This document shows, piece by piece, positions 38,196 through 38,378 of a stretch of 64,000 nucleotides of DNA (the first letter of the stretch is position 1; each line of letters opens with the position of its first letter). This stretch comes from Escherichia phage adrianh, in the sequence record MN850614.1; one strand, given 5' to 3'. The notes beneath the pieces were generated by a model. That model saw only the letters and a list, made by a program, of their open reading frames with translations, was not told the DNA's origin and made no database searches. The position numbers were made by a program, and so were the translations under genes.

Positions 38196-38354
38196 GCCTA
38201 ATAAGATTTTAAAGCCAAGCTTCATTCGGATGTTGCTTTGGTATCCCTCGTGTATTGTCGTACACACTAATAAAGCACCTAGTAGGTGTCACGGAGAAGA
38301 GATAATATCAAGCTCTCCAAAGGTTCTAGTCACCGGATTAAACAAGACTATGCA

Positions 38355-38378
38355 AAGACCTTTTTAGGTCTTTTTAGA
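38355..38378 (+). terminator. Rho-independent terminator within tRNA region
   Basis: AGACC TTTTT AGGTCT followed by TTTTT. Confidence 0.5.

What the first reader, a model, noticed from the sequence alone, without database searches (positions are those of the whole stretch)
38200..38378. Candidate small RNA: hairpin-rich 150 nt segment ending in a rho-independent terminator
Between tRNA-Ser and the next tRNA there are three local hairpins (GTGTATTGTCGTACACAC, CACCTAGTAGGTG, GGAGAAGAGATAATATCAAGCTCTCC) followed by a clean terminator (AGACC-TTTTT-AGGTCT then TTTTT). The only overlapping ORF is a 65-codon frame without an RBS. A terminator placed in the middle of a tRNA operon after a structured segment suggests an independently terminated sRNA.
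Basis: seen in the sequence. Interest (0 to 1): 0.45.

Follow-up and report, generated by a model that had tools for sequence, protein, structure and literature searches.

The report
Conserved structured RNA in phage tRNA operon
The stretch between two tRNA genes of this Felix O1-like phage is a conserved, folded, non-coding RNA element kept almost unchanged in about 250 related phages, but whether it is released as a small RNA, and what it does, is still untested.

Summary
The window is a Felixounavirus (Felix O1-like) genome. The finding lies in the 256-nt spacer between tRNA-Ser(tga) and tRNA-Leu(tag) in the tRNA operon.

- **Observation:** I found two more (P1, P5), and a 26-29 bp hairpin (38364-38453) that overlaps the "terminator" U-run and ends 1 nt before tRNA-Leu.
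- **Conservation:** an 80-nt core (38276-38353) is as conserved as the neighbouring tRNA genes, or more so. It is present in 253 phage records (Felixounavirus, Mooglevirus, Suspvirus). I did not find it in Kolesnikvirus, T4, 185,000 bacterial species genomes or E. coli. It matches no Rfam family.
- **RNA structure:** substitutions fall in loops or keep pairing. Two are compensatory double changes, and all six one-sided changes give G·U on the + strand. P1 and the long hairpin are rewritten between lineages yet always fold.
- **Coding:** the 65-codon ORF is broken in 38 of 48 distinct relatives.
- **Terminator:** the hairpin is weak (-9.3 to -5.9 kcal/mol), the scan did not call it, and one lineage has lost the U-run. 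No promoter-like site lies before the next seven tRNAs.

Verdict: a real, undescribed structured non-coding RNA module. It is most likely processed from the tRNA polycistron, with at most leaky termination. Its function is unknown.

The parts
37555..37583 (+). Context: sigma-70-type promoter-like site (TTGACA-17-TATACT). It is the nearest upstream promoter candidate for the unit that includes tRNA-Ser and the element.
   Evidence: 11 of 12 matches. It matches the predicted promoter 'P45' of the Felix O1 paper in hexamers, spacing and position just after tRNA-Ile (PMC3185647), and is annotated as a promoter in phage ASO1A.
38109..38198 (+). tRNA-Ser(tga), directly upstream. Its 3' end reads ...CCGCC|T, and it is the only tRNA of the cluster without a full encoded CCA.
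38199..38213 (+). A/U-rich single-stranded trailer UAAUAAGAUUUUAAA. This is the inferred endonuclease (RNase E-type) entry site that would free the 5' end of the spacer RNA.
   Evidence: Unpaired in all folds and conserved. The cleavage itself is inference.
38214..38242 (+). P1: a two-tier 5' hairpin. Its sequence is hypervariable but its structure is conserved.
   Evidence: All 21 distinct versions fold to a hairpin of -7.3 to -15 kcal/mol. Identity to the window is only 0.31 over 38220-38239.
38250..38265 (+). P2 hairpin: GUGUA / UACAC.
   Evidence: 100% of cells paired. One compensatory A-U to U-A change (L063, L068) and two G·U changes.
38276..38353 (+). Invariant core, containing P3 (38276-38288), P4 (38293-38318, with inner stem 38301-38309) and P5 (38327-38350, 14-nt loop ACCGGAUUAAACAA).
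   Evidence: Identity is 0.95-1.00 across 14 loci from three genera, equal to or above the tRNAs. Within the 33-sequence alignment, every core change is in a loop or junction, or is pair-preserving. The divergent L059 has further changes, including a compensatory U-A to C-G change in P5. No Rfam family matches.
38354..38375 (+). P6: terminator-like hairpin AAAGACC / GGUCUUU plus a run of five U (38371-38375).
   Evidence: -9.3 kcal/mol here and -5.9 to -7.7 in other genera. Not called by the terminator scan. The stem is kept through G·U changes. The U-run is broken in L059.
38364..38453 (+). Long hairpin with 25-26 bp arms (38364-38389 / 38428-38453) and an apical stem-loop (38409-38428). The motif UUGUUGCU (38414-38421, spanning the last stem pair and most of the loop) is invariant. 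The base of the stem lies 1 nt before tRNA-Leu. Candidate RNase III / processing stem.
   Evidence: repeat I1. -34 to -39 kcal/mol with z of -5 to -6.4 in four lineages. Covariation exceeds all 500 shuffles. The arms are rewritten but still complementary in L059.
38455..38532 (+). tRNA-Leu(tag), the first of seven closely spaced tRNAs. No promoter-like site of their own was found.
38170..38367 (+). Not a gene.
   Evidence: at least 64 codons survive in only 10 of 48 distinct homologues. It matches PHROG 36337, which I take to be an annotation artefact.
38286..38432 (+). ORF-B, a 48-codon frame with a GTG start that spans the core. Unlikely to be a gene.
   Evidence: it stays open for 23-52 codons, but has no SD and its start lies inside the P3 stem. 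Its C-terminus varies, and it would run through P6. Only 6 of 13 variable sites are third codon positions.

Best explanation
The spacer between tRNA-Ser(tga) and tRNA-Leu(tag) encodes a conserved, + strand, structured non-coding RNA module. It is specific to the enterobacterial Felix O1-like phages (Felixounavirus, Mooglevirus, Suspvirus).

Shown:
- Six hairpins (P1-P6) plus a long (about 26 bp) hairpin are maintained by selection on RNA pairing.
- An 80-nt core (P3-P5) is conserved as strongly as the tRNAs, or more.
- The overlapping ORFs do not behave like genes.

Inferred:
- The module is co-transcribed with the tRNAs from upstream sigma-70-type promoters.
- Its 5' end is freed by endonuclease cleavage in the A/U-rich trailer of tRNA-Ser and protected by P1.
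- Its 3' end arises in one of two ways. A minority of polymerases may stop at the weak P6/U5 signal. More likely, read-through transcripts are cut in the long double-stranded stem (RNase III-type) or by RNase P at tRNA-Leu.
- Either route leaves a stable RNA of about 160-250 nt.

Most speculative step: the invariant core then acts in trans as an RNA, binding a host or phage protein or RNA. This would parallel the stable RNAs of the T4 tRNA cluster and bacterial tRNA-spacer-derived sRNAs.
For: - **Identity of the phage and spacer:**
- **Distribution:** the core is present at 90% identity or more in 253 phage records. That compares with about 254 records whose terminase is at least 90% identical. 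The covariance model finds it in all 65 clade sources searched (64 loci plus the window).
- **Conservation:** core identity is 0.95-1.00, against 0.62-0.98 for the flanking tRNAs.
- **Pairing:** on 47 distinct sequences 99.9% of cells pair. There are two compensatory double changes (1 of 500 shuffles reaches this). All six one-sided changes give G·U on the + strand.
- **Placement of changes:** within the 33-sequence alignment, every core substitution and the single 1-nt deletion fall in predicted loops or junctions, or are pair-preserving. L059 adds a compensatory change in P5.
- **P1:** 21 distinct sequence versions all fold as a hairpin.
- **Long hairpin:** covariation exceeds 500 of 500 shuffles and falls sharply when partners are slid. 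It is -34 to -39 kcal/mol in four lineages, and rewritten but complementary in L059.
- **ORF-A:** broken in 38 of 48 homologues.
- **Flanking insertions:** endonuclease genes are inserted at either flank in relatives, never inside the element.
Against: - No expression data exist. No transcriptome or sRNA report for this phage group was found.
- The core is nearly invariant, so covariation inside it rests on one double change (P5) plus wobble changes, mostly from a single divergent lineage.
- No target complementarity beyond chance was found in the 64-kb window (longest 11-12 nt), and there was no BLAST match in E. coli.
- P6 is a marginal terminator.
- In pairwise comparisons the core ranks only in the top 3-14% of 80-nt windows, level with tRNAs rather than unique.
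Confidence: 0.55

Rival explanations
1. The module acts only in cis. It would be a folding insulator and nuclease-entry platform that ensures correct maturation of tRNA-Ser (which lacks an encoded CCA) and of the tRNA-Leu sub-cluster. The excised spacer would then be degraded with no function of its own.
For: - Long stems also end just before two other tRNAs that follow long spacers: 37158-37301 before tRNA-Lys and 37748-37782 before the tRNA-Arg-like gene.
- The long hairpin ends 1 nt from tRNA-Leu.
- The A/U-rich leader and trailer motifs are shared with other tRNAs of the cluster.
Against: - An 80-nt core that is invariant even in its loops is far more than a cleavage site needs.
- Other tRNAs in the cluster are separated by only 1-7 nt.
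- Kolesnikvirus relatives have tRNA clusters without this element.
Confidence: 0.25
2. The module is a transcription attenuator. The core would sense a factor and toggle between terminator P6 and an alternative helix (AAAGGUU 38319-38325 with GACCUUU 38357-38363) that sequesters the 5' arm of P6. This would set how much transcription reaches the seven downstream tRNAs.
For: - The alternative helix exists. With the P6 3' arm blocked, the conformer containing it folds at -7.6 kcal/mol, and it appears in the full-length fold.
- Both variable positions of the shared arm (38358 A/G, 38360 C/U) keep pairing in both helices.
- No promoter-like site lies downstream of P6.
Against: - The alternative conformer is weak in Mooglevirus and Suspvirus (-3.5 to -5.1) and carries mismatches.
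- No known riboswitch or T-box match was found.
- P6 itself is a poor terminator, and L059 lacks the U-run.
- There is no candidate ligand.
Confidence: 0.1
3. The conserved core encodes a small basic peptide, ORF-B (GTG 38286, VSRRRDNIKLSKGSSHRIKQDYAK...).
For: The frame stays open for 23-52 codons in all 55 distinct sequences. Five of the first nine variable sites were third codon positions.
Against: - There is no Shine-Dalgarno sequence. The GTG lies in the P3 stem, directly after an in-frame TAG.
- The C-terminal half differs completely between genera, and the frame runs through P6.
- With L059 included, only 6 of 13 variable sites are third positions.
- The P5 compensatory pair would require a D-to-G change.
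- One contig (L049) has a 1-nt deletion in the frame.
- Third positions are almost as invariant as first and second, although flanking DNA drops to about 30-65% identity.
- No Pfam or PHROG hit.
Confidence: 0.04
4. The element is a DNA-level signal or an evolutionary relic, for example a decayed tRNA, an endonuclease or intron remnant, or a recombination junction. It would have no RNA function.
For: Mosaic exchange occurs exactly at the element's edges: tRNA-Leu alleles are swapped after ...GATTTAAT, and endonuclease genes are inserted at both flanks.
Against: - The G·U-only pattern of one-sided changes is strand-specific; on the other strand these would be A·C mismatches.
- There is no tRNA or intron signal.
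- A relic would not be the best-conserved stretch of the region.
Confidence: 0.04

Closest known systems
Phage T4 rnaC / rnaD (species 1 and species 2 stable RNAs in the T4 tRNA gene cluster)
   Same: These are small RNAs (139 and 119 nt) annotated as 'small, stable RNA' on the tRNA strand inside a lytic phage's tRNA cluster, next to homing-endonuclease genes (annotation). From my own knowledge, they are co-transcribed and processed with the tRNAs and their function is still unknown.
   Different: There is no sequence or structure homology: nhmmer and the covariance model find nothing in the T4 region. T4 rnaC carries a tRNA-like T-arm sequence (GGUUCGAAUCC). The element here has no tRNA-like feature. 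The phage family is different.
Bacterial tRNA-operon spacer-derived sRNAs (E. coli 3'ETS-leuZ type; from my own knowledge, not tested here)
   Same: A non-coding RNA lying in a transcribed spacer of a tRNA operon, beginning after an A/U-rich trailer and ending at a hairpin plus U-run. It would be released by the tRNA-processing nucleases.
   Different: The element here is an internal spacer followed by more tRNAs, not a 3' external one. Its terminator is weak. No Hfq binding or sRNA partners are known, and no complementarity beyond chance was found.
RNase III processing stems between units of polycistronic RNAs (phage T7 early RNA, rRNA operon spacers; from my own knowledge)
   Same: The 38364-38453 hairpin is a 25-29 bp imperfect double-stranded stem placed between two functional RNAs. 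It is conserved by covariation. Its only Rfam near-hits are miRNA-precursor hairpins, which are generic long hairpins of the kind RNase III-class enzymes cut.
   Different: Cleavage is untested. The motif at the top of the stem (UUGUUGCU) is invariant, which a simple RNase III site would not need.
PHROG 36337 / Felix O1 NP_944868-like 'hypothetical protein'
   Same: It covers the same DNA: ORF-A matches the family over its full length at E = 3e-45. wV8 gene 51 is annotated as similar to Felix O1 NP_944868.1.
   Different: The frame is broken in most relatives and starts inside tRNA-Ser. I conclude that the 'family' is an annotation artefact laid over a non-coding RNA.

Membership tests
Intrinsic (rho-independent) terminator | Stable G+C-rich stem with a short loop | tested here: inconclusive
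   The stem is 7-8 bp with only 3 G-C pairs. It is -9.3 kcal/mol here and -5.9 to -7.7 in other genera, against -11 to -12 for three terminators from the Felix O1 paper folded the same way (PMC3185647).
Intrinsic (rho-independent) terminator | Run of at least 5-6 U immediately after the stem | tested here: not met
   There are five U, but three of them pair with AAA in the stem. The scan criterion (5 T in 8 after the stem) is not met and the site was not called. Lineage L059 has UUUGU.
Intrinsic (rho-independent) terminator | Transcripts actually end there | not testable with these tools
   This needs 3'-end mapping. Indirectly, no promoter-like site precedes the next seven tRNAs, so termination cannot be efficient.
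Trans-acting base-pairing sRNA | Discrete stable transcript | not testable with these tools
   No transcriptome of a Felix O1-like phage was found.
Trans-acting base-pairing sRNA | Conserved single-stranded seed complementary to targets | tested here: inconclusive
   Invariant loops exist (P5 loop and junctions). The longest complementarity in the 64-kb window is 11-12 nt, about what chance gives. There is no E. coli BLAST hit at E of 10 or less, but that search cannot see short seeds.
tRNA or tRNA-like RNA | Cloverleaf or T-arm detectable by tRNA models | tested here: not met
   ARAGORN finds nothing in 38199-38454. The Rfam tRNA model gives no hit even at E of 10 or less on the 266-nt region.
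T4 rnaC/rnaD | Sequence or structure homology | tested here: not met
   nhmmer and covariance model R1 find nothing in the T4 tRNA region.
T4 rnaC/rnaD | Non-tRNA RNA encoded within a phage tRNA cluster on the tRNA strand | tested here: met
   The strand is inferred from the G·U pattern.
Protein-coding gene (ORF-A / PHROG 36337) | Reading frame conserved among homologues, with a start codon and RBS | tested here: not met
   38 of 48 distinct homologues are truncated (32 of them at codon 13). The start lies inside the tRNA-Ser T-arm and there is no RBS.
RNase III-type processing stem | At least about 20 bp of double-stranded RNA, conserved as structure | tested here: met
   25-29 bp stems with z of -5 to -6.4. 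23 cells show double-sided changes against 8.5 in shuffles, 0 of 500 shuffles reaching that value.
RNase III-type processing stem | Cleavage by RNase III | not testable with these tools
   This needs an rnc mutant or an in vitro cleavage assay.
Riboswitch / attenuator | Match to a known aptamer class | tested here: not met
   No Rfam cis-regulatory hit.
Riboswitch / attenuator | Mutually exclusive terminator and anti-terminator helices | tested here: inconclusive
   The alternative helix 38319-38325 / 38357-38363 exists but is weak and imperfect in other genera.

The most novel reading that the evidence does not exclude
The invariant core is a sensor domain. Together with P6, the competing AAAGGUU/GACCUUU helix and the long hairpin, it would form a riboswitch-like attenuator inside a viral tRNA operon. 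By binding a host or phage factor, it would tune how much transcription reaches the seven downstream tRNAs, or it would release a counter-defence decoy RNA.
Probability: 0.1. Interest if true: 0.75.

Novelty: new member of a known kind. Interest (0 to 1): 0.45.

Why it matters
Felix O1-like phages are classic typing phages and are widely used as biocontrol and therapy candidates, and more than 250 genomes are deposited. Yet this element is either unannotated or mis-annotated as a hypothetical protein.

It is conserved as strongly as the phage's own tRNAs, or more so, which implies a function that matters for infection. If it is a stable RNA, it would be a second, unrelated example of the long-unexplained 'stable RNAs in phage tRNA clusters' (T4 rnaC/rnaD). 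It comes with natural sequence variants, which makes that old question testable.

At the least, genome annotations (PHROG 36337 and 'gp45'/'gene 51'-type CDS calls) should be corrected, and a new RNA family could be defined from the alignment and model built here.

Tried and rejected
- **Rfam:** scans of 35500-41500 and of the spacer alone gave only sub-threshold miRNA-precursor hits on the long hairpin. I rejected these as generic hairpin matches.
- **More distant homologues, to get covariation in the core:**
  - BLAST of the core at E of 1 or less found only the same 253 records.
  - A 15-mer scan of IMG/VR gave 27 clade members plus 8 chance hits.
  - A metagenome scan gave 21 loci, of which one lineage (contigs L059 and L073) was usefully divergent.
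  - nhmmer and the covariance model on Kolesnikvirus phiEa21-4 and SE5 and on the T4 tRNA region found nothing.
- **Host origin or mimicry:** no match in E. coli genomes or in 185,579 species genomes.
- **Target search:** complementarity within the window was at chance level. Duplex prediction against the 26 phage tRNAs and tRNA-like genes gave no outlier after allowing for multiple tests.
- **Alternative hairpin:** UAGUC-ACCG-GAUUA, favoured by energy on the isolated segment, was rejected because the substitutions in L059, KMM4 and L050 break it while preserving P5.
- **Kissing interaction:** between the P5 loop (AAACAA) and the apical loop (UUGUU). Rejected because the C-to-G variants are not compensated.
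- **Coding tests:** for ORF-A and ORF-B.
- **CRISPR-repeat mimic:** see the items noticed in passing. Judged a probable coincidence.
- **Literature:** searches for sRNAs or transcriptomes of Felix O1-like phages found nothing.

Full report
**What the window is.** ARAGORN finds 24 tRNA genes on the + strand between 36148 and 41046. The region around the finding is 98-99% identical to many Escherichia, Salmonella and Shigella phages of the genus Felixounavirus (subfamily Ounavirinae, Felix O1-like). The finding lies in the 256-nt spacer between tRNA-Ser(tga) (38109-38198) and tRNA-Leu(tag) (38455-38532).

**Checking the observation.**
- The three quoted hairpins and the terminator-like hairpin are all present: P2 38250-38265, P3 38276-38288, P4 38293-38318, and P6 38354-38373 with five T at 38371-38375.
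- The 65-codon ORF is 38170-38367, and its GTG start lies inside the T-arm of tRNA-Ser.
The long repeat uses the T-run as part of its 5' arm and ends 1 nt before tRNA-Leu.
- The segment folds better than shuffles: z = -2.4 for 38199-38380 and z = -3.4 for the whole spacer.
- The 'clean terminator' is overstated. Three of the five U pair with the AAA of the stem, and the terminator scan does not call the site. The hairpin is -9.3 kcal/mol here and -5.9 to -7.7 in other genera. Three terminators taken from the Felix O1 genome paper's table fold at -11 to -12 under the same method (PMC3185647). I did not find this site among the entries of that table that I could read, and searches for 't44' and 't45' found nothing.

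**Conservation.**
- BLAST finds the spacer in 253 phage records, down to about 78% identity over the whole spacer. The 111-nt core query never drops below 90% identity.
- About 254 records carry a terminase at least 90% identical to the window's, so the element is essentially universal in Felixounavirus, Mooglevirus and Suspvirus.
- In a 15-sequence alignment of 37500-39150, the stretch 38280-38359 scores 0.95-1.00 identity to the window. tRNA-Ser scores 0.88-0.98, tRNA-Lys 0.93-0.96, tRNA-Ala 0.76-0.80 and tRNA-Thr 0.69-0.81. P1 scores only 0.31 and the upper part of the long hairpin 0.53-0.65.
- In pairwise comparisons over 4-13 kb, the core is in the top 3-14% of 80-nt windows, level with tRNA genes.
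- A covariance model of P2-P6 (R1) finds the element once in each of 64 of the 65 clade sources and twice in L055. Searches of the window, the first 50 kb of Kolesnikvirus phiEa21-4, the tRNA region of Kolesnikvirus SE5 and the T4 tRNA region found no other copy.
- A 20-mer of the core is absent from 185,579 bacterial and archaeal species genomes. E. coli genomes give no BLAST match.
- No Rfam family matches the core. The only near-hits are sub-threshold miRNA-precursor models on the long hairpin.

**RNA structure versus other constraints.**
- On 47 distinct sequences aligned to the model, 99.9% of the 1400 cells pair.
- Two pairs show compensatory double changes: P2 A-U to U-A in two contigs, and P5 U-A to C-G in the divergent contig L059. 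Only 1 of 500 shuffles reaches this.
- All six one-sided changes give G·U on the + strand. On the other strand they would be A·C mismatches. Sliding the partners drops pairing to 34-52%.
- Within the 33-sequence alignment, every substitution in the core, and the single 1-nt deletion, lies in a predicted loop or junction or is a wobble change. The divergent L059 carries further changes, among them the compensatory change in P5.
- By my own rough binomial estimate this placement has a probability of about 0.02-0.03, so on its own it is modest evidence.
- P1 exists in 21 distinct sequence versions, and every one folds into a two-tier hairpin of -7.3 to -15 kcal/mol.
- The long hairpin shows 23 cells with double-sided changes against 8.5 expected, and a covariation score of 0.140 against 0.091; no shuffle out of 500 reaches either value. 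It is -34 to -39 kcal/mol with z of -5 to -6.4 in four lineages.
- In L059 both arms of the long hairpin are rewritten (CUUUGUAGAUGGCUAC / GUAGCCAUCUACAAAG) yet perfectly complementary.
- The motif UUGUUGCU (38414-38421), which spans the last stem pair and most of the apical loop, is invariant.
- Many G·U pairs again place the structure on the + strand RNA, the strand of the tRNAs.

**Coding potential.**
32 of them stop at codon 13 because of a 1-nt length difference in the trailer. Its PHROG family (36337) therefore looks like an annotation artefact.
- A second frame, ORF-B (GTG 38286), stays open for 23-52 codons in all sequences, so I examined it seriously.
- Against ORF-B: it has no Shine-Dalgarno sequence, and its GTG lies inside the P3 stem directly after an in-frame TAG.
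- Also against it: the C-terminal half differs completely between genera, and the frame runs through P6.
- Its substitutions are not enriched at third positions (6 of 13). The P5 compensatory pair would require a D-to-G change.
- I rate it at about 4%.

**How the RNA is probably made (inference).**
- No promoter-like site lies in 38100-38455. The nearest upstream one is 37555-37583 (TTGACA-17-TATACT). It matches the predicted promoter 'P45' of the Felix O1 paper in hexamers, spacing and position.
- The element is therefore co-transcribed with tRNA-Ser.
- The trailer UAAUAAGAUUUUAAA is A/U-rich and unpaired, as are the leaders and trailers of the other tRNAs. It is a plausible endonuclease entry site, and P1 would then cap the new 5' end.
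- At the 3' side, P6 and its U-run may stop some polymerases. The seven tRNAs that follow have no promoter-like site of their own, so read-through must be common.
- In read-through RNA, the long stem captures the P6 3' arm. This stem is an ideal double-stranded substrate for RNase III-type cleavage, and RNase P cuts 1 nt beyond its base.
- Similar stems end just before two other tRNAs that follow long spacers (37158-37301 and 37748-37782).
- Evidence on the U-run is mixed. It is kept as UUUUU in Mooglevirus and Suspvirus even though the opposite arm has a C there, but it is UUUGU with a compensating C in L059.

**What it does.** This is not resolved. I found no complementarity beyond chance to the rest of the window, no outlier among the phage tRNAs, no host homologue and no known RNA family. 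The near-complete invariance of the core's loops as well as its stems suggests recognition by a protein or a folded partner, rather than a simple spacer role.
- My best estimate (0.55 overall) is a processed, stable, trans-acting RNA.
- A purely cis role in tRNA maturation is the main rival (0.25).
- A terminator/anti-terminator switch is structurally possible, because AAAGGUU 38319-38325 can pair with GACCUUU 38357-38363. It is weakly supported (0.1).

**Comparison with known systems.**
- The closest analogues are the T4 rnaC/rnaD stable RNAs inside the T4 tRNA cluster. They occupy the same kind of place, and (from my own knowledge) their function is equally unknown. There is no homology, and T4 rnaC, unlike this element, has a tRNA-like T-arm.
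- Bacterial tRNA-spacer-derived sRNAs such as 3'ETS-leuZ are a second analogue (my own knowledge).
- I found no paper describing an sRNA or transcriptome for this phage group.
- I therefore file it as a new member of a known kind: a new RNA family in a known genomic niche.

**Verdict.** The 'independently terminated sRNA' mechanism is only partly supported. The unit is larger than reported, running from 38199 to 38454. Interest is moderate (0.45): a strongly conserved, undescribed RNA in a much-used phage group, but no expression data and no function.

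Noticed in passing
window 37555-37787: A sigma-70-type promoter-like site (TTGACA-17-TATACT) is followed by about 200 nt with no convincing ORF. That stretch ends in a 16-bp hairpin just before a tRNA. It gives weak tmRNA / permuted-tmRNA Rfam hits below threshold. The 3' part and the hairpin are recognisably conserved even in Erwinia phage phiEa21-4 (L053 about 24050-24289). This is a second candidate non-coding RNA, older than the one studied here.
   Followed up: partly
window 37158-37301, 37748-37782, 38364-38453: Three long stems each end 1-6 nt before the first tRNA that follows a long spacer (tRNA-Lys 37306, the tRNA-Arg-like gene 37788, tRNA-Leu 38455). They fold at -48, -20 and -38 kcal/mol, with z of -5 to -6.3. 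Their 3' arms share ...AAAGAU(A/U)... This looks like a recurring processing signal in the operon.
   Followed up: partly
window 37788-37866, 38012-38096 and about 37030-37105: These are tRNA-like sequences that ARAGORN did not call. 37788-37866 scores 31.7 bits with the Rfam tRNA model; relatives annotate a tRNA-Arg (tct where the anticodon is given) at what appears to be the same position. 38012-38096 has an acceptor stem and T-arm but an odd, apparently 9-nt anticodon loop (CCUCCAAAA). 37083-37102 is an isolated T-arm-like sequence.
   Followed up: no
window 36309-37064: Four copies of a 27-39 nt direct repeat (core CAGAAGACC(G/A)(T/A)TTACAGCAA). Two of them lie directly after tRNA 3' ends (after tRNA-Glu and tRNA-Met).
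   Followed up: no
L014 524-865 (phage NJ12); L006 963-1415 (phage PC79-13): Small genes are inserted exactly at the element's two borders in some relatives. In NJ12 a 114-aa ORF lies between tRNA-Ser and P1; by eye it has a PD-(D/E)XK-like motif, and I suspect a homing endonuclease. In PC79-13 a 150-aa ORF lies between the long hairpin and tRNA-Leu, with the first 11 nt of tRNA-Leu duplicated. The element itself was not interrupted in any relative I examined.
   Followed up: partly
window 38455 onward; alignment A1 columns 301-340: The tRNA-Leu(tag) downstream exists in two very different alleles (GGGAGATTGACGG... and GCACCTATAGCC...). They are exchanged exactly after ...GATTTAAT, and the allele does not follow genus. 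This points to modular recombination at tRNA boundaries.
   Followed up: no
L001 / L003 / L015 / L016 / L024 / L026 / L049 (wV8-type P1), the P1-P2 linker; not present in the window: The linker CGGTTTATCCC is the reverse complement of the last 11 nt of the E. coli type I-E CRISPR repeat (GGGATAAACCG). I confirmed the repeat sequence in E. coli genomes. It is followed on the minus strand by a hairpin. Only 3 of 1980 shuffles give an 11-mer. However, it is confined to one P1 type, lies on the non-tRNA strand, and the window itself shares only 6 nt. It is probably coincidence.
   Followed up: partly
window 38196-38199: tRNA-Ser(tga) is the only tRNA of the cluster whose 3' end is not followed by an encoded CCA (it reads ...GCC|U). 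It would need the host CCA-adding enzyme after the trailer is trimmed.
   Followed up: no
window 37914-37958: AAGGAGGUGGUCUGUAUCUC... is a strongly conserved spacer segment (identity 0.91-0.92) that is also present in phiEa21-4 (L053 about 24413-24435). It has a perfect Shine-Dalgarno-like AAGGAGG, but only a 7-codon ORF follows here and no ATG follows in phiEa21-4.
   Followed up: no
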